Below are positions 1,812-48,933 of a stretch of 64,000 bases of DNA, piece after piece. Within the stretch, counting starts at the first letter, position 1. Every line of letters starts with the position of its first letter. The translations under genes were made by a program, and so were the position numbers. The notes below the pieces were generated by a model. The model searched no databases and had not been told where the DNA came from. It saw only the letters and a program-made list of their open reading frames with translations. Origin of the DNA: the human T2T-CHM13v2.0 reference genome, Homo sapiens; the NCBI RefSeq assembly GCF_009914755.1, contig NC_060925.1; one strand, given 5' to 3'.

Positions 1812-4470
1812 ATCTGGATCTCCCAATGAACTACTTCCTGCCTCTGAGTAAAATGATAGCTCTCTAGCTATCCTTGAGAATGGGCAATTGTTATCCTTGC
1901 AGAATGGGTAGCCACAAAACAGTGGAGCTCACAGTAGAAGAGAAGATTTAAATATCCCCTTAGTTCGTTCTAGAAGTAAGTTTCGCATGAGAAGCCTGAC
2001 TCACTGAAAGGTCCATTTCTGAAGTAGCACCTCATTCCAGCACTTGCCAAAAACAGTCTGGAAAGTAGTAGATGATCTTCCTTATTGGTTTGCTCTCCAG
2101 AACACAGGAGACCTCTCCTGATCCAATCCAATCAAAACATTTATCATGTTTTGGACTGCCATATACAGTTGTGCAGATTGTGTACTGCACAAAGGTACCT
2201 GAAATGATGGTGCTAAAATCTTGTCCACATTCCTTTGCCAGTCGTGCACTCTGGTTCAGGGATGCTTATACCTGGAGCAAAAGGTTTCAATTTTCTCTGC
2301 ACAAAAGTGCTATCCACTTTCCCAAGCTGTTCACTGGAAAAAAGGGGTGTGTGTGGCATGGAGCAGGGCTAGGAGTTGGGGGAAATGACACATTGTCCTA
2401 ATTTGGGAAATTCAAGATTAAATAAACAAGATAAATGATAGTTGTTTTAATTTAAACTACAGTATAATTATTCTTTAATCTGGGATGGTCAAGAAGGCAC
2501 TATTAAAGGTATGGGATTCAAGCTGAGTCTTAACTGGTAAGTAGAATTTATATGGATGTATATAGGGCCTTTAGTCAATAAATATTTATTAAGTACATAT
2601 TATGTACAAGCTATGAAGCTAGACACTAAGAATATAAAACAAGTGAAATTTGGCCTGCGTCCTTAAGATGGTAACTGATACATAAACTCATAATAACAGT
2701 TATTCTGTGATAAACACTGTATGGGAGGCATAAACTGCACAGGGCACAGAGAAGAAAGAGTGGCTATTTCAGTAGAGCACATTCTTCCAAGTTTTGCAAA
2801 AAATAGTTGTCTATACCAAACAGCAACAAGGCATAATTCCAAAATGGGGTTCAAAATGTGCAAAAGTATTTTTTAAAATAATTCTACAATGTCTTCACCA
2901 AATTAAAAAGCTCTGTTGGCCTCTATAGCCTGTCTCTTATTTTCTTCATCCATTCGTCCTAGTCTTCATGACTATCCTCTCCACTTTCCTGATTGCAAAC
3001 TAGTTCACTATACTTCAGTGACACACATTAAACAACATAAGCATAAACATTTACAAAGTGTTCCTCCTACATCAGAATACACACATTTCAAAATAGTTGT
3101 AGTAACTCCCTCTGATATTCTTTAGCTCCTGAACCTGATGATCATTCTCATAATGTGCTAGCAAGGGAATTTCTGGGACATTTTTTACATCTTAATATTC
3201 AAACTACTCATACAGAGATTTTTTTTCTGTATGGATCTTCTTGCCTAGTAATATGATCACAATCTCATGTTACCAAGAAACACAAAATACAGTCAATCTG
3301 AAAAATTTTTGATTTCCATGAGTCCGTTCAATTCAATCTACGAAAAACCAATTTATTCCTACTCTACTGTAACTTCTGGGTAGATATAGAAGTGCTCAGG
3401 AAAACCTTTTCCTAAAAAAACTGCAGAAAGACCTATCACCTGCATGTCACATATTTTCATTTAGTTCATATGGCTTTCAATTCTGAATTTCATTGTAAAG
3501 TAGATTTTATTATACTCATTAGCCTCATCCACTAAAGCACAAGTCTAAACTGTGACATAAAAGCAAAATAACTCTTTTGATTACTACAGTATATATGTGA
3601 TTGCATCATATATCATTTTGATTGCACATCCAAATTGCATATTTTATATTTAAGTTCAAAGAGTTCTCCACGAGGCATAAATGAAAATTTATGAAGTATG
3701 AACAAAGTTTTACAAGACTAAAATTAAAATTATTTCTAACTAGACTAAAAACCAAGAATATAGCCCCAAGTTAACCTAATCACATCACAAGAATGATTCG
3801 CTACTCTCTATAATTCAGCCTCATAAGACCACCCCATCTGAGTGTTTCTTATATAGCTATGTGTGTCATTGGCTGGAACTTTCCTTATAGGTGGTTTGTA
3901 AGGAGTAAAACTTACTTCTATAGGTGTTACTGTCTTCTTTCCTATGCATTAGCTAAAATTCCATTAGATAAAAATAAATTAGAATCAAAGTAAATTATTA
4001 AAATGCTGCTATATTCAGAGTTTCTTAGCATCTTTGACCCCAGGAGCTGAATCTTGACCAATGTTAATCATATTTACTGGGTCTGCAGGAAAACATTTTT
4101 GCAAACAGCTAAACAGCTATAATAAATGGTTAAGATAACACTGGGGTAAAGAATCTCTGGCCACAGAATGGAGTAATACAAATTGCTCTTGTGATGTATA
4201 TCGTCCACATGCAGTTGCTTAAGATTCTGAAAAGGCCAGTACAAATGTGATGATCTGGGGTGAAGCTGTTATTTACTAAATCTAGTGGTTTTCAAACCAT
4301 GTTCTGTGTATCCATAAGCTTTCAGGCCCCTTCACTTCTTCAATTAGAGCAGTCCAGAATTCATCTGTTTTCCAAACTATAGTTCCATATAACATTTGTT
4401 TGTAATGTTGTAAGTTATAATGTTATATTGGTTTTTTTTTTAAGAAAAAAAGATTTAAAAGTCATTGCCT

Positions 4471-4662
4471 CAGTAAAAAATAATCATCCTTTGGTAATTA
4501 TCTATCACAACTAAACTTAATTTTAAATGTTTTCTTAATTCAGAGATACTTGTATCTCAGTGGTATCAGTAAAAAATAATCATCCTTTGGTAATTATCTA
4601 TCACAACTAAACTTAATTTTAAATGTTTTCTTAATTCAGAGATACTTGTATCTCAGTGGTAT
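4471..4662. repeat. Perfect 2 x 96-bp tandem duplication
   Basis: 4471-4566 is identical to 4567-4662 on manual comparison. Confidence 0.95.
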
Positions 4663-6070: not shown

Positions 6071-6358
6071 TTTTTTTTTTTTTTAAGGCACGCTTTCACA
6101 CTGTCACCCAGGCTGGAGTGCAGTGACATGATCTCGGCTCATGGCAACTTCCACTCCCAGGGCTCAAGCAATTCTCCAGCCTCAGCCTCCTGAGTAGCTA
6201 GGATGATGGGCACCCACAACCAATGCTTGGCTAATTTTTGTATTTTTGTAGAGACAGGGTTTCACCATGTTGCCCTGGCTGGTCTAGAACTCCTGAGCTC
6301 AAAGTGATGCACCTGCCTCGGCCTCCCGATGTACAGGTGTGAGCCACCATGGTCAGCC
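6071..6358 (-). mobile_element. Alu (AluJ-like) with TSD cttcca.atgaatttc; 5' end duplicated
   Basis: polyT followed by antisense Alu dimer. Confidence 0.9.
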
Positions 6359-9300
6359 TTCCATATGAATTTCTAAAAAAGGGATTACAGGTGTCAGCCA
6401 CCGCGGTCAGCCTTCCATATGAATTTCTAAAAAAGACTAGGGAAACACACCAAAAGGCCACAGTAGAAATTTTACTATAAGTATCACCTGAGTATAGCAA
6501 CACTAGATTTATTTTTAAGTGCATATTGATGACTTACTCATACCTCTCTGAGCCTATTTCCTGCAGAATGGTAGTAACAATGCCTAACTTTTAAAAAATA
6601 CATGCGCTAAACTACCAGCACCTACCTAGCACATGGTAGGTACACAAACAAAAGTCCTTCTTCACAGCCCCAGCCCCTACTCTCACCTTAGGACAGGTGA
6701 CAAGTCTACAGGTGTGTTTACCCGGTCCTTCCATCATATTTCTCTCAGGCACCCTCCCCAGTCACAACCATGATATTGGAAAGAAGGTTCTATAGGAATA
6801 CTCTACTCACAGTTTCCCTCTTCTAGTTCTTTGATGATTTGGTCACAGGCGTTCACTTCATTTCTCAACATCCTTTCCTGCTTATTTTGTGAGATCAGTA
6901 CCGTCAGGCAACTGCTGGTGTAAGAAGTAATGTTCTAAAATTATCTTGGCTTGAAATAAGGTGATGGACAAGAAAAAACTGGAAAGCTCAAATGTAAGAT
7001 GGGATTATTAGTATTATCACATGCAAAAAAGCACAAAAGAAACAGATACGGGAAAGGCCAGAATCATTTTCTAACCTACAAAGGGAAAATATTTAAAAGA
7101 TGGAATTTCTTGTGTTATAATCACGACAACAAATTAAAGTCTACCCATCTTTGAATATAGACGACTTTCAAAACCTCATTCGCTATAATGTATTGCCTTT
7201 AGTGAGGACTGTAGAAAAGATCTGAAACACAAAAGTATTTGGTATCTGTGCTACGACCGCATTTTGTCCATACTCACTGCACTATACAAACAGATCTCAT
7301 TAGGCTTAAGACTGACAACATGAAGAAAGTCTTCCTCTCTTCAAATGATTTCCATTTTACTTGATTAATTACATGCACTTGTATATTGAATAGCTAAAAT
7401 AACTGACTGTTCATCCTTATCTAGATGTTTTTGAAATTAACAATTCTTAAAAGGTTATATAATTGAAATGTTTGCATTTATAAACCCCTCAGTTATTTAC
7501 TCAAAGATTTGAAGTGCTTCTAAATAGTTGATAATAAATACTTTAAAAATAACCCAATAAATCAACTCTATAGTTTGGAAAACTCAATTCTTATCAAGGC
7601 ATCCCTTAGCAAGACATTCTCACCAAGATCCCGGCATAAGTGGGTGATTACTTTCTTTATTCCTCAACACAGAACCCTTATCTCTGAAGGAGTCCTGAAT
7701 TTAATCCCCGTAAACCTTTCCCACTGCACAGACACCTACTTGCTTCCCCTCAAAACCTCCTTTTAGAGTCTTTCCACACACTGAACACCTACAACTTTCT
7801 CTGCATCTGATGATAATTGAAGTGGCTACATATACTCAAACTCCATTAACAGGCTTGGGCAGCATTCTGAGTAATCCGAGTATTAACCAGGACTCTACTG
7901 ATTGCTTTTAGGCCTTGCCTGAATGCTCTGAGAAGCACACGAGCTCCCAGAAGTATTGACAGTGGCTTGTCTAGTTAGAGCTCCTTCCTAACCAAAAATT
8001 AAAAAGGAGAAGGAGGAGGGAGAGGAAGAGAGAGATAGATTTAATAAGCCATAGTATACAGCAGGCACTTTACATATATTGTCCCATTTAATCTTCATAA
8101 CCCGGTGAGGGTAGGTATTATTACCTTCACTTCTTTCAGAGAAGTTAAGGAATTCACACAACTAGGAAGTGGGAGGTCAGGGACTGACTCATTTGACTAC
8201 TCCACAGTGCCTGTGAAATGATGGCACACAGCAGCCTCTGTGGACTGAAAAGGTATTCTCTCTTATAGAAAATCTTTGAAGTGTGTTCTGTCCCTTTGCT
8301 CTCCTTTCTCCAAAATCTCCAACCACACTTAGGGTCTCCTTCTATGTCCCCCTATTCTCTTTGGTAAATTACTGATTCCATGTTTGTTCATTACCCAATT
8401 TCTCGCATCTCACTACAACTTTTAGATCTTCATGATGCTAAATCCATCAATACTCCTTTGTGAATACCAAATGAGTTTAGTCCTTAAATATAAGTAATAA
8501 TAATAGTAATGGTTCATTTTTAAAGGAACTTGTATAATTTACAAAGCACTTGAACTTACATTAAGTCATCGAAAACAACAATCCTAGAAAGAAAGTGCCA
8601 ACACCTCCATTTCACAGATGAGGAAATAGGCGCAGAGAAAGAAAGTGACTTAATTAAGGCCACAGAGTCAGTAAAGGGTAGACTTAGATCTCAAAGCAAG
8701 CCAGGTTCAGTGCTCTCCAGCTGAAAAATGAAGAGAGCTGTAAATGCAAATGCTCTAGAAATAGTAAAACACCTAACACAGACAAGTATCTCTAATAATC
8801 AGCAAACTGCTTTGTTTAAGGAATGATCCTAAAAAGATGTATTTGCAAAAAAAAATAGTAAAGAATTTGTTTTCTTGTGACCTATAGAGGCAGGTTTATC
8901 TGGTTAAAAATATAACAGCAACAGAATGTTCCAAAGCAACACACAGAGAAAAAATATCTATGCCTTGTCTGTATTAAGCAACCTCCCCTACTGCCCAGCA
9001 TTATAAAAATCACATTGCCAAAGCAGCTTTACCTGATAATGGAACGTTTTCTTCTCAGATGTTTGTAAAGCTGCTAAAAAAAACAAAAACAAAAAAACAA
9101 AAAAACAAATCAGGTGCATGTTTTTAAATTCAATCTTTCTCCTAAACAAGTACCCACAGTGCTTGAGAAGCTCTTATTACCAGCTAAATCAGTACAATTT
9201 CCTGTTAGCACTGAGTAGCAATGGAGCCAACTGATGAATTTGAACTAGGGAGACCCACTCACAATCCCTAAGCAGGGAAAGTAACTCAAACTCTGAATGT

Positions 9301-26911: not shown

Positions 26912-28009
26912 CTTTATATGCCATGGAAATTAAAGTTGAAAAAGACTTGAAGACTGGAGAAAGTACAGTTCTGTCTTCAATACCTCTGCCATCAGATGAC
27001 TTTAAAGGTACAGGAATAAAAGTTTATGATGATGGGCAAAAGTCAGTGTATGCAGTAAGTTCTAATCACAGTGCAGCATACAATGGCACCGATGGCCTGG
27101 CACCAGTTGAAGTAGAGGAACTTCTAAGACAAGCCTCAGAGAGAAACTCTAAATCCCCAACAGAGTATCATGAGCCTGTATATGCCAATCCCTTTTACAG
27201 GCCTACAACCCCACAGAGAGAAACGGTGACCCCTGGACCAAACTTTCAAGAAAGGATAAAGATTAAAACTAATGGACTGGGTATTGGTGTAAATGAATCC
27301 ATACACAATATGGGCAATGGTCTTTCAGAGGAAAGGGGAAACAACTTCAATCACATCAGTCCCATTCCGCCAGTGCCTCATCCCCGATCAGTGATTCAAC
27401 AAGCAGAAGAGAAGCTTCACACCCCGCAAAAAAGGCTAATGACTCCTTGGGAAGAATCGAATGTCATGCAGGACAAAGATGCACCCTCTCCAAAGCCAAG
27501 GCTGAGCCCCAGAGAGACAATATTTGGGAAATCTGAACACCAGAATTCTTCACCCACTTGTCAGGAGGACGAGGAAGATGTCAGATATAATATCGTTCAT
27601 TCCCTGCCTCCAGACATAAATGATACAGAACCGGTGACAATGATTTTCATGGGGTATCAGCAGGCAGAAGACAGTGAAGAAGATAAGAAGTTTCTGACAG
27701 GATATGATGGGATCATCCATGCTGAGCTGGTTGTGATTGATGATGAGGAGGAGGAGGATGAAGGAGAAGCAGAGAAACCGTCCTACCACCCCATAGCTCC
27801 CCATAGTCAGGTGTACCAGCCAGCCAAACCAACACCACTTCCTAGAAAAAGATCAGAAGCTAGTCCTCATGAAAACACAAATCATAAATCCCCCCACAAA
27901 AATTCCATATCTCTGAAAGAGCAAGAAGAAAGCTTAGGCAGCCCTGTCCACCATTCCCCATTTGATGCTCAGACAACTGGAGATGGGACTGAGGATCCAT
28001 CCTTAACAG
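26912..28009 (+). CDS. PALMD: Palmdelphin large exon 7
   Basis: taacag| and |gtaata; 1098 nt, phase 1-1; corresponds to ORF 26923..28053; paralemmin motifs ALYAMEIKVEKD, GIKVYDD, EPVTMIFMGYQ, GIIHAELVVI. Confidence 0.98.
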
Positions 28010-28053
28010 GTAATAAAAATGACAAGGCATGCCACTGCTGTTCAGTCATGTGA
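28010..28053 (+). CDS. PALMD: Alternative PALMD C-terminus by read-through of the exon 7 donor: GNKNDKACHCCSVM* (CaaX plus palmitoylation cysteines)
   Basis: The frame stays open into intron 7 and ends in C-x-C-C-S-V-M-stop, resembling the lipidation tail of paralemmin-1; AATAAA follows at 28206. Confidence 0.8.
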
Positions 28054-31000
28054 CCAGCTTCTCTTGTGCTAATGCAGTCTTGCTTTCAGGCTTCTCTGAC
28101 CACCTCATAAACTAATACGCACTGAGATTTTTTTATTAATGCTGATAGAGATTATTATCACCACAGTAAAGTGATTAAGTCACTTCAAAAGATAAAGAAA
28201 GTAAAAATAAATCATTGCCTTATTTGATATTGTATTGAGGAACTTTAATAACTTGAATTTCATCTTCTATCATGGTATGGTGCTGCTTGTGAGTGTATTT
28301 GGGTCACTAATATGTTGGATCATCAATAACATATCTTTTTCCACTAGAATCTGATGACTACTTTATTTGTGCCTCACTGTGATTTAAACTTCTTATATAA
28401 GTTAACAAATTGCCTTAATTCTGCAAGAAAGTACAAGAAACAAATTTTATTTTCAGAGTATTTTATTACCTTGCTGTATCTTGTTTCTCTATATGTCTAT
28501 AGTTTCATTAATTTTATTTTCCTAATTTTTCTACATTTTAAAATAGAATGTTAGTTTATTTTATGTTTTCTATAACCTTTAACTTTGCATAGTGTTCCCC
28601 AACTTAGCATATTTATCTTTTCTATTTTCTATATATTTGCATTTCTCATTCTTTGCAAAATTTTTATAGCTTTATAGCTAACCAGCTATTTTAGCATTGA
28701 GTGGAAAATAACTTTAACACTTTTTTTCTACAAAAGTGATAGCTTCTCAATTTTAGATTTCTTGTTATCACTTAAATACTATATTCTAGTTATCATTTAT
28801 AAAGAATAAATAAGAACCTAACAAAATCAGTTATAATAGCTGTACTTACCTTGGCTAAAGATGTAAATCAAATTACCCTGACATACAATTTCTGTATGTT
28901 TGCTAGGGATAGTAATTTTAAATGTCTCTAATGGAAGGATTCTCATTAAAAAGCAATAAATATTAAGTACTGGCTAACTTCACAAGTCAAACTTGATAAT
29001 TCTATGGCAGTGTGGTAGTACCTGCACAATTACCTACACAATTCAATAATGTTTCTTCCTCTACAACCCATAAGCCCAATATTAGGTAGCTAATAATACA
29101 GTAAAATGAACCTTCTCCCATTATTTTAAGTAGTTAAAGTAGGTATCCCAATGATAAATTTAATTACCTGAAGAATTTCTAAGCTTTTGGAAAGTATACA
29201 CGTATACAACTTCCTCAATCAGAGTTGAGTGATATGTCCCACAATGGAAAGTTGCAGATACTAAGTTTCTTTCCATCTTAAGAGAGAGCTTTGGTCACTG
29301 ATCAAACTTTGCCATCTTAAACTCATTTTAAAAACAAAAAACACAGAAGACTTAGAAGAGAGGAACACACTGTTTACGGTCAATAGCAGTGACATTATCC
29401 ACTATAAAACCTCCCTTTTCTGAACTTGGATATTAGCCAGCTCCTCCTGAACACCCTTATTTCTTCTCCTCTAACCTTGTCAACACATTTACCCCATGGA
29501 AAATGACAGGAAGTGACTAACATTTCCAGACAACACTAATCATGCCCCTGAACTAAAATAATGAAAACAGGAAAACCTATTCCAGACAAAGTAACAATAC
29601 AGAGTTCTGTATTATCAATCAAAGTATCTTATAAACAGAATGCTCCAAATTCCTTGCCTTCCACCATGATATTGTTTTACATTGCTGTTTTCCAATTCGG
29701 CATACAGACTACAGAGCTGATGTGTATTTTTTAAGTAGGTTTTAAAAATAAGTAAGTCACAGTGTCATATGCCCTCACATGCCATCCATATACAAAGAAT
29801 ACATAACCACCTACGTACTTCCATTTCACAAACACCAAGTGGGTTGAGCTTCTCCCCATAACTCCCCCAAAAAACGCTTATGATACTTGAAAACTCACCA
29901 TTTAGGTCAATTCCTTTATTTATGGTATAAATCCCCTATTTAATATAAATAGCCCTGGTAGGCATAATAGTTAAGAATTGTTAGTCTCTTTTCCCTTGGT
30001 ATAAATATGGTTATCAATACCTTATCTAAGAGCAATTTTAATTTGGAAAACAGCGTGAAGAAGAAAGAAATGGAAAAAGGTGGACCCTGGAGATTCAAAA
30101 GACAAGATTTTTTTAGTCAAAATTTTGAACAGAGTAAGACATGACAGAAAAATTCAGGCAACATTATGTCCATCTGCTTAATGTAAATATAACATATTCA
30201 TAGGATAAAGCTCAATGCCAGACACTTCCACCATTGCATGGCCCCAGCCAGCTTTGCATGGGAACTCACTGCTACCCCTACCAATCAGGGGGTAGTAGTT
30301 GGCTTTCTTTGGTAGTCCTCACCAACCTATTCTTGTACTTCCAGCTCTATTCTGTCCTCTTAGAGGTGTCAGTGGCATTCCAGGATGAAGTGGTGGGGAT
30401 CTCAGCTCTGGGAGTTCATATGCTACTGGTGCTGATTGCCAACCTGCAACAGCCATTAGAGTCCAAGGGATAATGAGAGTAAGGAGACTTCTATCAAGTT
30501 CAGCCAGCTGAAACCATGCATCTAAAATGCTATGGGAAGAAGAGGCAGGGATCAGACAGGAGCAGAAAATAGAAGTAAAAAAGAGAGCTGATGGCCCAGG
30601 GTTTTTAGCTGCTAAACCAAGCCTTCTATTGCCAACATGCTCTGGCCCCATGCATTTACTGGAACTCACACTACCTACTTGCCATAGGCTTGAAAAAAGG
30701 AAAGAAAGGAAAGCAGACTCTAGCAAACTTCTCTGAATGTCCACAGCACACAGGATGTGCCTGATTTACGGAATCTTACAGTGAGGAGTGACTGTAAGAA
30801 AAAGCAATTTGCCCGTGACTTATAAGAGACTCAAAAAGCCCCTCACTCCTACTCTCTTTTGTTGGTAGGGGCAAGATAGAGGTCCATAAAATCCAACAGT
30901 ATAAACTTCATAAAGACTTGCCTTCTGCCTTCTGCCTTCTGTTCACCTTCTGCTATGTAACTACAGCCTCTGCCAGCAATCGAGACCTGCTTGCTACAGA

Positions 31001-32155
31001 GCACATTCTCTCAGTTCATCCTAAATTCTAGGGAATATTCTTGGCCCTGCCACTAGAACTGATCATCCCTGTTAAAGTTTCAAGGGAAATAATGCTCTTT
31101 AGCTTCATTGAAATTAAAATATTTCATATAAGTGGAGTGACAATTAAAATAATCATGGTCTTGTTACAGAATTAGATCCCATCCCTTCTCATATTTGTGC
31201 AAAAAGGTTTCTTAGGTATGGGGTCATTTCCATTGTCAAAAGGTAACCAATATATGGTATACAAATGAGAAAACATGTCTTCCATTTTACTTTCCATGAG
31301 ACAAAATTGTGCAATCAGTTACATAGCTTGTTCTTGGGCCATATTACATGTGAATGTAATATTAGATCATTAACATAATCTTTAGATCAGTGCCTTGAAA
31401 GCATCTATCAACTTTTGGAACATGACTAAGGCAGCTCTACACTGAAATCCTAAATAATAAGAATAGAATACCAGAATACTCATCCAGAATACCAGAAAAG
31501 TGTTATACATTCTAAATCTACATTTTAAAAAATGCTTTCTACATTCAATATATTATTAGCAGAGGAATATATCCAAAAAGATATATTTGCCATTTTAAAA
31601 CATACTTATATCTTGACAAAGACATTTTATAATCACTCCAGCTTTTAATAACTTGTTCCTGTTGTTTCATTCGTAAAGAAATTTGTTTTTGTTATTGTAT
31701 ATCCAAAGGCCAGAGCTCCTTTGGGAAAGGAAGTTGAATGAGCTGAAAGCAAACACGATCATGAAATAGAGTTTAAGTGTAAACACCATTTTATTTTGGC
31801 AGTACATAACTCAGAAATGTATGTAAAACAGTCATCAACCTATAGGAATCTGTATGTATGGCTAATAGGGAAACTGTGCATTAATCCTGTATTTGTTCCA
31901 CTTGTACTGTTTGCTCTACTAATTTTTCTAATCTTTATAGAAATAGGTTCCTTCTAGTTCTGAACCTGCTTCTGCCCTAAGTTAACCATAGCTTATTATT
32001 TCTACTATCTTTTTGTGCTACTAAATCAATGCTCACACTGTTGGATAAAACCATCTGAGGTATGTTCTAAACTTTCCTGCATTCTATGAATGGCCATTTA
32101 GAGTAAAAATTGAGGATTTTTTTTATAACTCTCTTTTTTTTTCTTTAATTTGCAG

Positions 32156-32199
32156 CTTTAAGGATGAGAATGGCAAAGCTGGGAAAAAAGGTGATCTAA
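32156..32199 (+). CDS. PALMD: Palmdelphin terminal exon 8, coding part (ALRMRMAKLGKKVI*)
   Basis: long polypyrimidine tract with tgcag| acceptor; phase 1; TAA at 32197-32199. Confidence 0.96.
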
Positions 32200-32492
32200 G
32201 AGTTGTACCACCTATATAAACATCCTTTGAAGAAGAAACTAAGAAGCATTTGCAAATTTCTCTTCTGGATATTTTGTTTATTTTTTCTGAAGTCCAAAAA
32301 ATTATCATTACAGTGTACCATATTAAGCCATGTGAATAAGTAGTAGTCATTATTTGTGAAAAATTCCCAAAAAGCTGGGGAAAACAAATGTGTAACTTTT
32401 CCAGTTACTTGACACGATTCAGTGGGGGAAAACCAGCATTTTTTATTCTATTGATACCAAAGCATTTCTAATAAGAGCTTGTTAAATTTAAG

Positions 32493-32654
32493 AATAAAGT
32501 TATTTAAAATATTCTGAGTATAGTATATTAACTGGCATTGTAATTTTGATGATACAAAGATTGAAAGATCATAGGAAAGCATTGCCCTTCATCACAGAAG
32601 TATTCAACTCTGACAAATAAATATGTCATCCTGAATTAATAATGCCTTAATAAA
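32493..32654 (+). terminator. PALMD: PALMD 3'UTR polyadenylation signals (AATAAA at 32493, 32616, 32649)
   Basis: three canonical hexamers 0.3-0.45 kb after the stop; GT-rich element (gttggtttggt) downstream of the last one. Confidence 0.75.
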
Positions 32655-32966
32655 AGTACATCCTCCTGCTAACTATCACTTCAGTTGGTTTGGTAGAGAC
32701 TTCAAACCCTTGCACATATCCAAAAGGTGCATCCCGTAATGATCCTCAGATTTGGGGTCTGAGTTTGGATAGTCCGGCCAGTGCACAGATGATAACCGGC
32801 ACATTCATTCTTCTTAAATTATCATCCTTTCTTTCACTCAGTTCAATGTGAACCCTGTGGTGCAATGACAGACTATGACCTCAGGGTGTTGGATAGAGGA
32901 TGTCCCATACCCTCAAAGAGCACAGATCTGGTCTAATATTTCACTGATTCTTGTGAACAAGTTAGA

Positions 32967-33181
32967 CAGGGGTGGCCCATCTTTTGGCTTCCCTGAGCCA
33001 CATTGGAAGAATTGTCTGGGCCACACATAAAATACACGAACACTAACAGTAGCTGATGATCTAAAAAAAAACGCAAAATAATCTCATACTGTTTTAATAA
33101 AGTTTATGAATTTGTGTTGGGATGCATTCAAAGCCATCCTGGGCCACATGCGGCCCGCGGGCGGCAGGTTGGGCAAGCTTG
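32967..33181. mobile_element. MER30 (hAT-Charlie)
   Basis: cagggg..atcttttggcttccctg..ccacattggaagaattgtc..cattcaaagccatcctgggccacatgcggccc..caagcttg. Confidence 0.85.
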
Positions 33182-34091
33182 AGTTCGAATCTTAATATTA
33201 AAACTAATAGGAATGTTTACAGCATATTACTTCTAAGTATTCTTGCCAAGATATTCAATCCTAATTTGAAGCAGAGTACTCCCATGACAATAAATTCTTT
33301 CCTACCCTGCCTTATTTTACGTCCCTCCTTCAAACCCCCTCGAGATCCACTCCTACACACCTTCCCCTGAATCATGCCAGTATATATTATCCAGCTCATC
33401 CAAGTCTTTCCATGAGAGTCTGTTTCCTCCCAGGACAGAAACTGAATTTCCCTGCTGGGACTATGTATGATCAGACTTTATCTTAATTATTGGTCTGAAG
33501 GTAATGAGAGGTCAGAGAAGCAGATGATTCTGAGGAGGACATGCATTAACCTGCAAAGCCTCCATTCCAGCTGAGTGGTTTTGCAAGGGGCAGCTGTTCT
33601 CTAGCGGGAGAGAGCTACTTCTGGTGGCCTGAAATGTTCTGGGAAACCTGGAGGTTCAAATTTTTGAAGTAAATTACTTTCAACAAATATCCCTATTCCA
33701 GGTCCAGGGACTCTTTCCCTTTCATGGCTCTAAGTTTAGCATAAGTGACCTCTCAAACCTGCACGTTCCTTTGTTGCCCTGCCACCCTTAGGATTGAAGC
33801 ATGGGTTTTATTTTCACACAGTTTGCCTTCTGTCTACAGCAGACATAGTTCTCTTTAAACATTGCCATGATGCCTGCCTGGCTTTCTGGAATGCCCCGAA
33901 ATAGTTGGCTGGTCTGAGCCTAATTCTTTTTCTTCAAAGATTCTAAGGCAATTATCAAAAAGCAGCCAACTTCACAGCACATGTCAGTACATGATAATAT
34001 TTTGCCCCATACTAGTCAAGTGCAGAGCTACTTTATAACCTACCTCTTCCCTTTTTACCTGTACCTCATCTCAATCCAGTATAAGGGAGAG

Positions 34092-34398
34092 TCTTAGTAA
34101 CTATAATAGTACAGAGACAAGGTACTGCCTTCTGTTCACCTTCTGCTATGTAACTACAGCCTTTCCAGCAATCGAGACCTACTTAGCAGGTATTTTGTAC
34201 CTGAGTACAAACCATGGGTTATAACTGAACACAATTTGCTGCTCATATTGGTCCAGGTTTGGCTATTAAAATCTCATTCAGTTGGCTCCTGTGCCCCTTT
34301 GACTTATCCATATAAGTGATTTTGCTTAGTTACTTCCTTACTTTCTGGCATTACAAGATTACCCAGTCTCAGCTTCTTAGTAACTATAATAGTACAGA
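34092..34398. repeat. Composite locally templated insertion flanked by 24-bp direct repeats
   Basis: patches match 30932-30992 and 35910-36091. Confidence 0.9.
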
Positions 34399-36377
34399 CA
34401 GCCAAAGGTTGTTACCATTAACTTATCACACAGTCCTCATTGCCCTCTGACCAGTGAGTGGACTGTCCAGTTCCAGAGTCCCATTCAGAGCATCTGCTCT
34501 GTAGAGCCACTCTTGGTTCCAACAAGAAGTACAGCCTGAAATTAGGACTTGGGTACAGTAGTTTGAGAAGTGATCCCAGGAGTAGGAAGAAAAGCACAGG
34601 AAAGAATGGTAAATATAATGGTATGTAATAGAAGTCAATGCTTTAGGCACCAGAGACTGAATTTTACTATAATCTCAAAAAGAGTGTACAGAAAGCAGCT
34701 AACATTGTCTGTCTGAAGGAGAGAACTTTAGGGCATTTATCCACCAGCTCAGGTCCCTCATTGAATGAGGGAGCATAAATTCCCCCACACTTCTGGATTG
34801 CACTTGCATGAGAGTCACACAGGTTGCCTTAGTGCCCAGAGTGAAAAGAAGAAAGAAGCACGGAACATGCCTCTAGAAGGATGGTAAGTCTGAACTCACT
34901 TGGAACTGTCCACTGCAGCTATGGTGCTGCAAAAATGGACCATGGGGAAATGACACAGGCACCAACAGTGTCTGCCACACTAGCTGTATAACCCTGGGCA
35001 ACAAACAACTTACCTGAGCCTGTATCCTTATCTATAAAATGAGGTACATGTCACCTGTCTAACACAGTCATGTGAGGACTCAATTTGTCAGCGAATTAAA
35101 AGAACCAGGTGTCCTGCCCATCATCAAGTCTGGCTGAGGTGTCACACATGAAGGTAGACACCATATACCCTTATCATTTCATATCTTGGTGTTTTGTATG
35201 TTTAGTGCTCATTTTAGGTCAATGGGGCATTTCAAGTTAAGTGGAGTAGAAGTAAGTAAAGGAAAAGTTTGGGGAAGGGTAAGTGAAATAATAGTTCAGG
35301 GTATTTTTTTCCCAGAGACATTCAGTTGGTCCAGCTCTATTTGTTGAAACACTATTATTTTTCACATTGAATTACCTGGACCCGTTTGTTAATTAGTTGG
35401 TCCTAGAAGTGAGATCCTACATATGGAGTCTCTGCTCTATTCCATTCATCTGCATATCTCTCATGAATACTGCACACTTTATTTATACTGGTTAATATTG
35501 TAGTTTTATAATAAATATTGGAATCGAGTCGGGTTAGGTCCTCCAATCTTATCTTGTTTTTTTAATACACTTTAAAAACAGTTTTAGATTAACAGAAAAA
35601 TTGAGAAGACAGCACAAAATTACCACATACCCTGTACCCAGATTTTCCTATTTTAACTTCTTACATTAGCATTGTACATCTGTTACAATTAACAATCCAG
35701 TAGTGATACAATATTATTAACTAAAGTCTCAAACTTTATTCAGATTCCCTTAGTCTTTAGCTAATGTCCTTTTTCTGTTCCAAAATCCCAAAAAGAAAAC
35801 CATGGTACTTTTAGTTGTCATGTCTCCTTTTGCTCTGCTTGGCTGTGACTCTTTTTCAGACTTTCCTCGTATTTGGATGACCTTGACAGTTCTGAAAATT
35901 GCTGAGTATGTATTTTGTACCAGGGTACAAACCATGGGTTATAATCCAACACAACTTGCTGCTCAAGTTGGTCCAGCTTTGGCTGTTGAAAGCTCATTCA
36001 GTAGGCTCCTGTGCCCCTTTGACATATCCCTGTAAGTGATTTTGCTTTGTTTTTTCCTTACTTTCTGGCACTACAAGATGACCCAGTCTCATCCTATGTA
36101 TTTCTTACCCCAGTTCTGGAATCAGCAACTTATCCAAGAGTTTCTGTTGCTTTTATTGGAGAATGATACAGAAAACAAAATCTGGGCACTAGGCATGCTC
36201 ATTGCTACTTTGTCTTTTTAAATATTGTCTTGACCATTTAAGGTTCTTTGTCTTCCCATGTGAATTTTAGAATCAGTCTGTAAACCCCTTCAAATGAGGC
36301 TGCTAGGCTTTTGATTGGAATTAAATTTATAGATCAATTTGGAGAGAATTTTCATTCTAATATTGTTTGCTGATCCA

Positions 36378-37335
36378 TGACCCCAAGAAACCAAAGGGCA
36401 AGATATCTACTTATGCCTTCTTTGTGCAGATGCGCAGAGAACCTAAGAAGAAAAACCCAGTGGTCCCTGTCAATTTTGCAGAATTTTCCAAGAAGTGCTC
36501 TGAGAGGTGGAAGACCATGTCTGGGAAAGAGAAGTCTAAATTTGATGAAATGGCAAAGGCGGATAAATTATGCTATGATCAGGAAATGAAGGATTACATA
36601 CCAGCTAAGGGAGGCAAGAAGAAGGATCTTAATGCCCACAAAAGACCACCATCTGGATTCCTCCTGTTCTGTTCAGAATTCTGCCCAAGATCAAATTCAC
36701 AAAGCCTGACATCTCTATTGAAGATGTGGCAAAAAAGCTGGATGAGATGTGGAATAACTTAAATGACAGTGAAAAGGAGCCTTACCTTACTGCATTAGTC
36801 CAGTCTCATGCTGCTATGAAGAAAAACCTGAGATGGGGTAATTTATAAAGGAAGGAGGTTTAATTGACTCACAGTTCCGCATTGCTGGGGAGGCCTCAGG
36901 AAACTTACAATCATGGCAGAAGGCAAGGAAAAACAAGCACCTTCTTCACAGGGTGGCAAGATGGAGTGAGTGCCAAAAGGGGAAATGCCAGACACCTGTA
37001 AAACCATCAGATCTCATGAGAACTCACTATCACAAGAACAGCAACCGCCCCCATGATCCAATTACCTCCACCTGGTCCCACCCTTGACACGTGGGGATTA
37101 TCAGGATTACAATTCCAGGTGAGATTGGGTTGGGGTCACAGAGCCAAACCATATCAATCACCAAGGCAGCAAAGCTGAAAGAGAAGTATGAGAAGGATGT
37201 TGCTGACTACAAGTCTAGAAAGCTTGATGGTGCAAAAGGTCCTGCTAAAGTTGCCCAAAAACAAGTGGAAGAGGAAGATGAAGAAGACGAGGAGGAAGTA
37301 AAGGAGGAGGATGAATTAAAAAAACTGTTCATCTA
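36378..37335 (+). pseudogene. HMGB3 processed pseudogene (5'-truncated, frameshifted, split by an LTR)
   Basis: intronless [54 protein letters not shown] and [30 protein letters not shown] plus acidic tail; these residues are HMGB3-type rather than HMGB1/2; frameshift near 36690; start codon missing. Confidence 0.93.
36791..37156 (-). mobile_element. THE1 (THE1C/D-like) ERVL-MaLR solo LTR inserted in the HMGB3 pseudogene
   Basis: ends gccaaaccatatca (reverse complement of the TGATATGGTTTGG LTR start); typical gtttaattgactcacagttccgcat..ggggaggcctcaggaaacttacaatcatggcagaagg; degenerate 5-bp TSD cttac/atcac. Confidence 0.88.
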
Positions 37336-40300
37336 TTTTAAAAATGCTTTTCTATAATGACTTTGTGTCCTACACCTCTGATAAGTTCAATTAATTTTAG
37401 CATTTTTTAATATATTCCTTAGGATTTTCTACTTAATGATCAGGTTGTCTGCAAATAAAAACAACTTTACTTCTTCCCTAATCTTATGACTTTTATTTCA
37501 TTTCATTGCTTTATTGCACTAAGGCTTTCAGTACAATGTTACATATAAATGCAGAGAGCAGGCATTCTTTGCCTTGTTCTGATTTTTCAGAGGGGAAGTA
37601 TTATCTTTCACCATTGAATATAATTTTGGCTGTAGGTTTTTCCTGGATGCTATTTATTACGTTGAGGAAGCTTCCACTCCTAGTTTGCTAAGTTTTTACT
37701 ATGAATGTGTTTTGAATTTTGTCAAATGCTTTCTCTGCATTTACTGAGATCATCAGAAGGGTTTTCTCCTTTTTTGTCTAAACTGGTGAATTTCATTGAC
37801 AAATTTTTCAGATGTTATGCCAACAGCGCATTCTTTGCATAAATCTCATTTGGCTTTGATGTATTACTCTTTGTGTAAGTTGCAGAATTTAATTTGCTAA
37901 TATTTCATTAAGTACTTTTTTAAATTATGGATTTTCAGTTTATGGTCACGGGGAATATAGTCTGTAGTTTCCTTTTCATGTGATGCTTTTGTCTGGTTTT
38001 AGTATCAGGGTAATGCAAGCCTTATAATATTAGTTGGGTAATGTTCCCTACTGCTCTATTTTCCGAAAAAGTTTGTGTACTCTCAATATTAGTTCTTCCT
38101 AAATGTTTGCTGGAATTCATCAGTGAAGACATTTGGACCTGGAGTTTTCTTTCTGGGAAGGTTTTTTAGTTACATATACAATTTTTTAATTTTTATTTTT
38201 AATTGTGGTACAAATACATTAAGATAAAATTTACCATCCTAACCATTTTTATGTGTACAATTCAGTAGTGCTAAGAAAATTAACATTGTTGTGCAACAGA
38301 GCCCTAGAACTTTTTCCTCTTGCAACACTGAAACTCTATACCCACTGAACATCATCTCCCCATTTCTCCTTTCCCATCCCTGGCAACCACCATCCTACTT
38401 TCTGTTTCTATGAGTTTGACTACTTTCAATACCTCATCTAAGCGGAACCATACAGTATTTTTCTTTTTGTGATGGCTTATTTCACTTAGCTTCACGCTGT
38501 CCAGGTTCACTCCTGTCGTTGCATGTGACAGAATTTCCTTATTTTTTAAGGCTGAATAATATTTTACGATGTGTTTATACCACATTTTCTTCATCCATAC
38601 ATGGGCATTTGAGTCGCTTCTGCCTCTTGGCTATTGTGAATAATGCTACAATGAACATGATGTGCAAATATTTCATAGAGATCTCACTTTCAATACTTTT
38701 GGGTATATATCCAGAAGTGGAATTGCTGGATCATATGGTAATTCTATTTTTAATTTTTTTGAGGAACATCCATACTCTTTTCTGTAACCGTTGTTCCATT
38801 ACATATTCCAACCAACAATGCACAAGGGTTGCAATTTCTACAAATCCTCACCAGCACTTGTTATTTTCTGGGGTTTTTTTATAGTAACCATTTTCATGGA
38901 TATGAGGTGATATCTCATTGTGGTTTTGATTTGCATTTCTCAATTATTAACAATTTTAAACATCTTTTCATACGTTCGTCAGCCATATGTGTATCTTCTT
39001 TGGAGAAATATCTATTCAAGTCCTTTGCCCATTTTTAAATTTTGTTACTTGGTTTTTTATTGTTGGGTTGCAGGAATTCCTTATATATTCTGCATATTAA
39101 CACCTTATCAGATATAAGATTTGCAATTATTTTCTCCCATTCTGTGGGTTGCTTTTCACTCTATTTCTTTTGATATATAGGAGTTTTGAGGTTTGATGTA
39201 GTCCCATTTGTCTATTTTTGCTTTGTTGCCTATGCCTTTTGTTGTCATATCCAAGAAGTTGTATGACTAAATCCAATGTCATGAGCTTTTTCCCCATGTT
39301 TTCTTCTAGGAGTACAGTTTTAGGTCTTCAGCTTAGGCCTTTCATCAATTTGAATTAATTTTTGTATATAATGTAACATAAAGGGCTCACTTCATTCTTT
39401 TGTATACGGATATTCAGTTTTTCCAACACCATTTGTTGAAGAGACTGCCCATTCCCCACTGAGTGATCCTGGCACCCTCATCAAAGATCATTTGACCATA
39501 GACAAGAGGGCTTATTTCAGGGCTGTCTGTTCCATTCGCTGATCTATATGTCTGTTTTTATGCCAGTACCACACTATTTTGATTATTGTAGCTTTGTAAT
39601 ATGTATGTAATTCAAAAATCACAAAGGGTATAGATATAGAAAATTGTACTTTTTGATAAAAATGCAGATATTCCTCACTAAAAATATATACTCTTCCTGT
39701 GTTAATTCTTCCAGCATAGAAATCTTTAAATGACTATTATATAATTCATACCTTAGAGGTAAAGGTGGTGTATATTTATGCAAATTCTCTGCATCCTTCT
39801 CAATACTTATTACCTTTTTTTATTACAGCCATTCCAATACAACATTGATGCAAAGTGACGAGAACAGACATACACTTGTCCTGTTCCTGATCATAGGGGC
39901 AAAGTGTTCAGTCATTCACCATTAAGTGATGTCAGTTGTAGGTTTTCCTTAGATGCTTTTTATCAGGCTTCACACGTGTTCAAGGGTCAACCAGAGAGAG
40001 ATGTGGGCAAACAGGATTGGGGATCCCCTCTCTAGCATTTTCCTTTTCAGGATCACCCACTGACTCCAGCAGCTTCAGTTGCCCCGGCCATCAGTCCTCT
40101 GATTTCCTATGCTAGAGAAACTGCAGGTTTTCCACTGGATCCTCTGCCACCCAGCACTCTACTGACTACAACTGCCCTGATGCTAAAATGTAGAAACAGA
40201 GCTCACTCCAAATAGTTTTCCTCCTCTGCATGTGGATTTCTCTCCAGGAATCTTCCTAGAATTGTTAGAATTCTTTCTATATTCGATACTATAGAAATAC

Positions 40301-41613: not shown

Positions 41614-41984
41614 GGCCAGGTGTGGTGGTTCACGCCTGTAATCCAGCACTTTGGGAGGCTGAGGCAGGCGGATTGCTTGAGGTCAGGAGTTCGAGGCCAG
41701 CCTGGCCAACATGGTGAAAGCCCGTCTTCACTAAAAATACAAAATTTAGCCAGGAGTGGTGGCACATGCCTGTAATCCCAGCTACTCAGGAGGAAGAGGC
41801 AGGAGGATCACTCGAACCCGGGAGGCAGAAGTTGCAGTGAGCTGAGCCCACAGTAAGTTTGTCAAACGGGTCAAAGTTGTCTGCAGCTCCACTTAGCCTA
41901 GAATCCAGTCATGCCACTGCACTCCAGCCTGGGCGACAGAGCGAGACTCCATCTCAAAAAAGGAAAAAAAAAAAAAAAAAAAAA
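41614..41984 (+). mobile_element. Alu (AluS-like) carrying a 62-nt non-Alu insertion at 41847-41908
   Basis: Alu dimer, A tail, TSD aaac(c/g)ctaac; right arm interrupted at gag|..|tcatgccactgc. Confidence 0.92.
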
Positions 41985-48122: not shown

Positions 48123-48933
48123 ACAGTAAGCCATAATTCAGTGGTCATCAAAAGCCCCACATATATAAGCCTATCAAGGATCAAAAGTAGCAGGACAGAT
48201 ATGTACTACTCAGCTCCTGAAGCCACCCCAGGCTCTCCTAAGTTTACAACATATACACTAGACAACAAAGAATTTTTGTTTTTAGAAGGCCACCTTCACT
48301 TATTTTGGTGGATGAAAACCAGGCAGGACACAAAGGACATTTAGCCTAGAATCCAGGCTAAATGATACCCATTCCCTACTAATTTCTCCACTCCTAATGG
48401 TGGCTATAGGTATCCTGACCCTGCCTGGCACCAAAACAAACCTTGTCACTAAAGAGCAAAAGCAAAATCAGTCCTTCCTATCTGGCTTGCTCCTAGCTAC
48501 ATAATTATGCACATGACAACCTAAATGATAGCACCCAGTAAATTTGTCAAATAGGTCAAAGTTGTCTGCACCTCCATCCAGTGTTGACTTTGAGTCTCTT
48601 CTTCCTCCATCTCAGGGTTTCCTCAGCTCTAGGCATTCAGAGTTCCCAGTCCATACTGGCTCTAAGTCAGACCAGCAAAGTGAAAGTACTTACAAGGAAG
48701 ACTCCCTGCCTAAAACCTAAAACCTTTCCTTTATATCTTATTCACAACTTCTAATAGTAACAAATGTAAAAAAACAAAGGCAGAAAATCACAATTTCTAG
48801 CACTGGCTGAGTGATCACAAGTTTTTAGTGAGCTAACAATGTAGCAGTCAGCCATTACTATCGGGAAGCGCATTCTTTTCCAATGGTTTGTATAGAAGTG
48901 CTTCTACATAACATGGCTTTTTTACCAGGTTAC

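What the first reader, a model, noticed from the sequence alone, without database searches (positions are those of the whole stretch)
34092..34398. Second composite insertion: upstream and downstream donors joined between perfect 24-bp direct repeats
Seen: TCTTAGTAACTATAATAGTACAGA occurs at 34092-34115 and 34375-34398. Between them, 34125-34184 copies 30932-30992 (PALMD intron 7, 3.2 kb upstream) and 34190-34371 copies 35910-36091 (1.7 kb downstream; 21 mismatches in 182 nt, no gaps). There is no polyA tail, so this is not standard L1 TPRT. The second donor lies in an L1MC-like remnant, but the gapless match suggests copying of this particular locus. Inference: an older templated-insertion repair scar sampling both sides of a staggered break. 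The flanking repeats being identical while the patch is ~12% diverged is unexplained.
Basis: partly seen in the sequence, partly recalled or inferred. Interest (0 to 1): 0.7.

Follow-up and report, generated by a model that had tools for sequence, protein, structure and literature searches.

The report
Old DNA-repair patch from two neighbours
Just past the human PALMD gene, copies of two nearby pieces of DNA sit joined between two identical 24-base repeats, likely the scar of an imperfect DNA-break repair that probably happened 30 to 50 million years ago, an ordinary case of an already described kind of local duplication.

Summary
An exact 24-mer flanks a 259-bp insert built from an upstream donor (58/61 identical) and a downstream donor (166/190), all on one strand, with a 4-nt microhomology join, 9- and 3-nt fillers, no A-tail and no L1 endonuclease site. 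The downstream piece was copied from this locus: it spans a deletion junction private to the local repeat remnant (47/55 against at most 31/55 in 35 remote copies) and shares 11 of 136 derived sites with it. This is a repair-mediated duplication as defined by Pace et al. 2009 (PMC2671141: 824 proximal cases, 20 two-donor chimeras, some with target duplications). This event is not in their table, but an Alu insert 7.5 kb away is. Three similar copies turned up in 236 kb of other sequence. Only mild oddities remain: donors on both sides of the site, and a 24-bp duplication against their 4-21. No primate empty site could be checked.

The parts
34092..34115 (+). Left copy of the 24-bp duplicated target sequence
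   Evidence: Exact match to 34375-34398; 25% GC, no CpG
34116..34124 (+). 9-nt filler; possibly a decayed continuation of the duplication (resembles 34401-34409)
   Evidence: No second exact copy in 28000-40000; extension score reached by 256 of 1500 random 14-mers, so inconclusive
34125..34184 (+). Copy of upstream donor
   Evidence: 58/61 to 30932-30992
34180..34184 (+). Junction between the two copied pieces, at a 4-nt microhomology (TGCT in both donors, TACT in the patch)
   Evidence: Three-way alignment; no GT-AG or CT-AC in any tested register
34182..34371 (+). Copy of downstream donor, spanning the donor's private deletion junction
   Evidence: 166/190, no gaps
34372..34374 (+). 3-nt filler
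   Evidence: Not in the donor at this place
34375..34398 (+). Right copy of the 24-bp duplicated target sequence
30932..30992 (+). Upstream donor, in the last intron of PALMD, 3.1 kb before the site
   Evidence: Only two matches in the genome search, itself and the patch
35902..36091 (+). Downstream donor, 1.5 kb after the site, inside an old interspersed-repeat remnant
   Evidence: Continuous with the same repeat family on both sides, so it is the source and not the copy
35600..36200 (.).
   Evidence: 2777 genome candidates; 17 of 17 remote loci that align on both sides carry 272-837 extra bases there

Best explanation
This is a same-strand composite copy of two nearby donors between a 24-bp duplication, likely left by one germline double-strand-break repair event of the SDSA type in which each broken end probably copied a stretch from its own side before the two ends joined at a 4-nt microhomology. 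Shown: the anatomy, the local origin of both pieces, the direction of copying for the downstream piece, and ageing of both copies at similar rates. Inferred: a two-ended break; the left end landing 3.2 kb upstream and copying about 60 nt; the right end landing 2.0 kb downstream and copying about 190 nt towards the break; the 24-bp duplication from a filled-in stagger or from a short extension on the sister chromatid; an age near the simian stem. The order (upstream donor next to the left flank, downstream donor next to the right flank) argues against the two resected ends priming on each other, which would give the reverse order (inference). No function is proposed; it looks like neutral intergenic DNA.
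For: Local donors are the best genome matches: 87% over 190 nt against 70-85% over shorter parts for the 37 remote matches listed; donor 1 has two matches only. Junction-spanning 55-mer: 47/55 to the local donor, at most 31/55 in 35 remote loci. 11 of 136 shared sites differ from the remote majority; differences polarise 10 patch to 7 donor, p 0.63. No A-tail, no TT/AAAA cut context, no splice signals. PMC2671141 predicts and reports two-donor chimeras joined at microhomology, with filler and, in 6 of 39 proximal cases examined, target duplications. Divergence 10.8% (95% CI 7.2-15.3) matches the 54 'All primates' rows I saw in its Table S1 (median 9.9%), and the neighbouring Alu insert is listed there at 9.8%, All Primates.
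Against: No empty site was seen, so the pre-insertion state is inferred. The outer junctions show filler rather than clear microhomology. The 24-bp duplication exceeds the 4-21 nt in the published sample. The two of five local chimeras I could see in Table S1 have both donors on one side. Sequence alone cannot tell two-ended SDSA from one strand switching three times, or DNA from RNA template.
Confidence: 0.55

Rival explanations
1. Serial template switching by one nascent strand (FoSTeS/MMBIR type): the strand leaves at 34115, copies the upstream donor, jumps 4.9 kb forward to the downstream donor, then returns 24 bases behind its exit. Same class of product, different choreography.
For: All pieces are on one strand and collinear. 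Local templates and multi-piece inserts are common at germline breakpoints: 871 (53%) of complex sites had a template within 10 kb and 191 had two or more duplications (PMC4617611). The layout equals a cycle of templated insertions or local n-jump (PMC7025897).
Against: Return within 24 bases of the exit after two kilobase jumps is easier if a second broken end waits there (inference). The left-right symmetry of donors comes naturally from two ends.
Confidence: 0.27
2. RNA-templated repair in cis: an unspliced, read-through PALMD transcript served as template, reverse transcription started near 36091, skipped 4.9 kb at the microhomology and ended near 30932.
For: Both pieces are in PALMD sense and in transcript order, and the site is 1.4 kb past the annotated 3' end (gene table). 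RNA-templated repair is reported in human cells (search listing only); 17 complex-deletion inserts were judged RNA-derived (PMC4617611).
Against: No splice junction, no A-tail. It needs a transcript that keeps the last intron and runs 3.4 kb past the polyA site. Similar same-strand copies occur elsewhere, and none of 39 proximal cases in PMC2671141 had an RNA hallmark.
Confidence: 0.12
3. Ordinary L1 retrotransposition (an independent L1 fragment or a retrocopy with a true target-site duplication), the local similarity being family resemblance.
For: A direct repeat brackets the insert and 190 nt of it is repeat-derived.
Against: Private junction and shared derived sites tie it to the local copy; 60 nt is non-repeat; no A-tail or endonuclease context.
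Confidence: 0.03
4. A large tandem triplication later trimmed by three separate deletions.
For: All pieces are in direct orientation.
Against: Needs four or more events that leave a 24-bp overlap; the two donors' divergences do not differ significantly (Fisher p 0.10), as expected for one event.
Confidence: 0.03

Closest known systems
Repair-mediated duplication (RD), Pace, Sen, Batzer and Feschotte 2009, PMC2671141
   Same: Donors within 5 kb, short insert (published mean 162, maximum 619 bp), microhomology, filler, target duplication, no A-tail, two-donor chimera, divergence of the oldest primate class.
   Different: Donors lie on both sides of the site (4.9 kb apart, against 289-3432 bp for the five published local chimeras); duplication 24 bp against 4-21; the site is not inside an annotated element and one donor is repeat-derived, both excluded by their pipeline.
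Complex germline deletions with templated inserts, 'Ins with MultiDup and Del' (1000 Genomes, PMC4617611)
   Same: Several local templates within 10 kb in one insert, microhomology at template ends.
   Different: Those come with a deletion and are polymorphic; here the host gains 24 bp and the event is old.
Cycles of templated insertions and local n-jumps (PCAWG, PMC7025897)
   Same: A string of copied templates that returns and re-replicates a host segment.
   Different: Described as somatic events in tumours; this is a germline fossil of 283 bp.
Templated sequence insertion polymorphisms, classes 1 and 2 (PMC5110952)
   Same: Templated patch; class 1 has target duplications, class 2 repair-type junctions.
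   Different: Defined by distant donors; class 1 needs an A-tail and TTTT/A site, absent here.
Small tandem duplications from staggered breaks (PMC8355091) and from failed SDSA joined by polymerase theta (PMC8654963)
   Same: Offer routes to the 24-bp duplication with a templated insert at the junction.
   Different: Experimental systems; kilobase-distant donors on both sides were not in the passages I read.

Membership tests
Repair-mediated duplication (PMC2671141) | Donor within 5 kb on the same chromosome | tested here: met
   3100 and 1504 bases from the repeats
Repair-mediated duplication (PMC2671141) | Insert of 50 to about 620 bp | tested here: met
   259 bp between the repeats
Repair-mediated duplication (PMC2671141) | Microhomology, filler, deletion or target duplication at junctions | tested here: met
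   4-nt microhomology, 9- and 3-nt fillers, 24-bp duplication, slightly above the published 4-21
Repair-mediated duplication (PMC2671141) | No polyA or polyT tail | tested here: met
   Longest run 4; a tail could have decayed, but only 3 unassigned bases lie at that end
Repair-mediated duplication (PMC2671141) | One identifiable parental copy per piece | tested here: met
   Donor 1 two matches only; donor 2 singled out by its private junction. The genome search scores only the best 40 candidates
Repair-mediated duplication (PMC2671141) | Empty site in an outgroup or an interrupted element | not testable with these tools
   No relatives are held for this genome; the flanks gave no repeat match
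L1 target-primed insertion / class 1 TSIP | Target-site duplication | tested here: met
L1 target-primed insertion / class 1 TSIP | PolyA tail after a signal | tested here: not met
   No tail; one ATTAAA lies about 110 bases from the junction
L1 target-primed insertion / class 1 TSIP | TTTT/A endonuclease site | tested here: not met
   Edges GGAGAG|TCTTAG and TACAGA|CAGCCA
Class 2 TSIP | Patch from a distant region | tested here: not met
   Both donors within 3.2 kb
Spliced retrocopy | Junction at GT-AG splice sites | tested here: not met
   None in 17 plus 11 registers tested on present-day donor sequence

The most novel reading that the evidence does not exclude
The scar is a fossil of repair copied from the gene's own nascent read-through RNA: an unspliced PALMD transcript tethered at the break was reverse-transcribed with a 4.9-kb internal skip. 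The same-strand bias seen in 6 of 6 events here would then partly reflect RNA templates, and a share of the primate repair-mediated duplications would be RNA-templated in cis rather than SDSA products.
Probability: 0.1. Interest if true: 0.55.

Novelty: new member of a known kind. Interest (0 to 1): 0.17.

Why it matters
Little by itself: one more old, probably neutral repair scar, with no listed functional element. It is a tidy teaching case, since the order of the two pieces records which end copied what. A catalogue of straddling two-donor cases would test whether ends prefer their own side and whether copying keeps strand polarity, two points that the text of the 2009 survey that I read does not report.

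Tried and rejected
Anomalous identity of the repeats: rejected (P 0.04-0.065 by rate used, Fisher p 0.14; identical runs of 38, 20, 20 inside the patch). Longer, imperfect duplication of about 35 bp: inconclusive (256 of 1500 random 14-mers score as well; the shared 5-mer alone is in 1.2% of windows, post hoc). Error-prone synthesis as the source of divergence: not supported (10 against 7). Splice junction, A-tail, L1 cut site: none. Hairpin at the site: none (z 0.20). Paralogue with an empty site: none in the genome search. Hotspot: 3 events in 64 kb against 3 in 236 kb, p 0.12 with the finding counted and 0.29 without, background short-ranged, so not shown. Papers not held: Abyzov 2015 on breakpoint microinsertions and Thomas 2004 on doublets (ids recalled); the second is known here only through the discussion in PMC2671141. 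A search for PALMD or FRRS1 with insertion or duplication listed 10 of 34 papers, none on this site by title or abstract start.

Full report
Observation. The insert between the repeats is 259 bp, a net gain of 283. Nine bases at the left junction and three at the right are not assigned to a donor. The two copied pieces meet where both donors read TGCT. All pieces are on one strand. None of 400 random segments was bracketed by an exact repeat of 16 or more.

Are the donors really local? A search of the whole genome returned the two local donors as the best non-self matches; the 37 remote matches listed covered only the repeat-derived part (only 40 of 157 candidates are scored). The upstream donor region had two matches, itself and the patch. 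Of 35 remote loci, 17 aligned on both sides of 35919-35956 and all 17 carry 272-837 extra bases there, so the local remnant has a private deletion; the other 18 aligned on the left only. The patch runs through that junction: 47/55 to the local donor, at most 31/55 to any of the 35. Patch and donor also share 11 of 136 scorable sites against the remote majority. The donor continues as the same repeat on both sides, so it is the source.

The supposed paradox. Pooled divergence is 27/251 = 10.8% (95% CI 7.2-15.3). The repeat has no CpG, and the patch has identical runs of 38, 20 and 20 with its donors. Of the 24 differences in the long piece, 10 are patch-derived, 6 donor-derived (7 with position 35901, just outside), 2 ambiguous and 6 uncovered; 10 against 7 gives p 0.63. 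Both copies aged alike, so the divergence is time and not sloppy synthesis. The left filler may be a decayed extension of the repeat, but the test was inconclusive.

Age. Divergence gives 27 Myr at 2.2e-9 per site per year and 49 Myr at 1.2e-9 (both rates assumed). The 54 'All primates' rows on the first part of Table S1 of PMC2671141 have a median of 9.9%, and that table lists an Alu insert 7.5 kb from this site at 9.8%, All Primates. The simian stem is the likely time; this is inference.

Mechanism. There is no A-tail, no L1 cut context and no splice signal at the middle junction. The published SDSA model says that both ends of a break may invade different templates and re-anneal at microhomology, giving a two-donor chimera. 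Here the upstream donor follows the left flank and the downstream donor precedes the right flank, so each end would have copied from its own side. Mutual priming of two resected ends would give the reverse order (inference). One strand switching three times gives the same product, and so would a nascent PALMD read-through RNA with an internal skip. The fossil cannot separate these; I weigh them 0.55, 0.27 and 0.12. That it belongs to the repair-mediated duplication class whatever the choreography I put near 0.9.

How common. The same scan (pairs of at least 40 bp and 85% identity, 100 bp to 10 kb apart, either strand) found 10 pairs in the window, 6 of them locus-specific, in 3 events. In 236,476 bases elsewhere (ten 10-kb tiles at round coordinates and 42 repeat-centred loci of about 3.3 kb) it found 14 pairs, 11 set aside as interspersed repeats and 3 locus-specific. 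Two of the three were confirmed as two-copy in the genome; the third is a local piece inserted into an Alu and was not searched. The window is not shown to be a hotspot (p 0.12-0.29). None of the other five events has an exact bracket above 8 bp, so the 24-bp duplication is this event's least common trait. All 6 events are direct (two-sided p 0.03; small sample).

Comparison with print. PMC2671141 (main text parts 1-5 of 8, passages, Table S1 part 1 of 15 plus three searches, Figure S1 part 1 of 24) reports 824 proximal duplications, 20 chimeras among 1136 with 5 fully local, junction classes including microhomology plus target duplication plus filler, and a rate peak at 30-42 Myr. By the offset of the listed Alu insert, this event falls near hg18 chr1:99,934,099-99,934,405; no number starting 9993 and no PALMD or FRRS1 entry is in the table, as expected for a site outside an annotated element. 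I saw two of the five local chimeras; both have donors on one side. The other three may include a straddling case. Passages only were read of PMC4617611, PMC7025897, PMC8082928, PMC8355091 (with abstract) and PMC8654963; part 1 of 4 of PMC5110952; listings only. Later structural-variant catalogues and their supplements were not checked, and an old fixed event would not be in polymorphism sets.

Verdict. Real, well explained, a new member of a known kind. The decisive missing piece is the outgroup empty site. Interest 0.17.

Noticed in passing
window 41847-41908, donor 48530-48576: A 62-bp insert interrupts an Alu; 47 bp match a donor 6.6 kb away at 87%, two copies in the genome. It is already catalogued in Table S1 of PMC2671141 (AluSx, distance 6638, All Primates).
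   Followed up: yes
   Followed up: partly
window and L017, L049, L051: All 9 locus-specific copied pieces (6 events) are in direct orientation although the scan covered both strands.
   Followed up: partly
L017:1164-1335 (donor 1977-2148): A 173-bp piece of a neighbouring repeat remnant inserted into an Alu at 91% identity; a local copy of repeat DNA of the kind that single-copy filters miss.
   Followed up: partly
L051:4898-5285 and 6846-7239; L049:434-496 and 2013-2074: Two further two-copy local duplications, 394 bp at 91% and 63 bp at 90%.
   Followed up: partly
window 4470-4662 and 6351-6435: An exact 97-bp near-tandem duplication, so probably recent, and an exact 31-bp repeat with 54-bp period.
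   Followed up: no
window 30918-30938: The upstream donor starts in a short 7-bp tandem (three units); the patch carries only the last unit.
   Followed up: no
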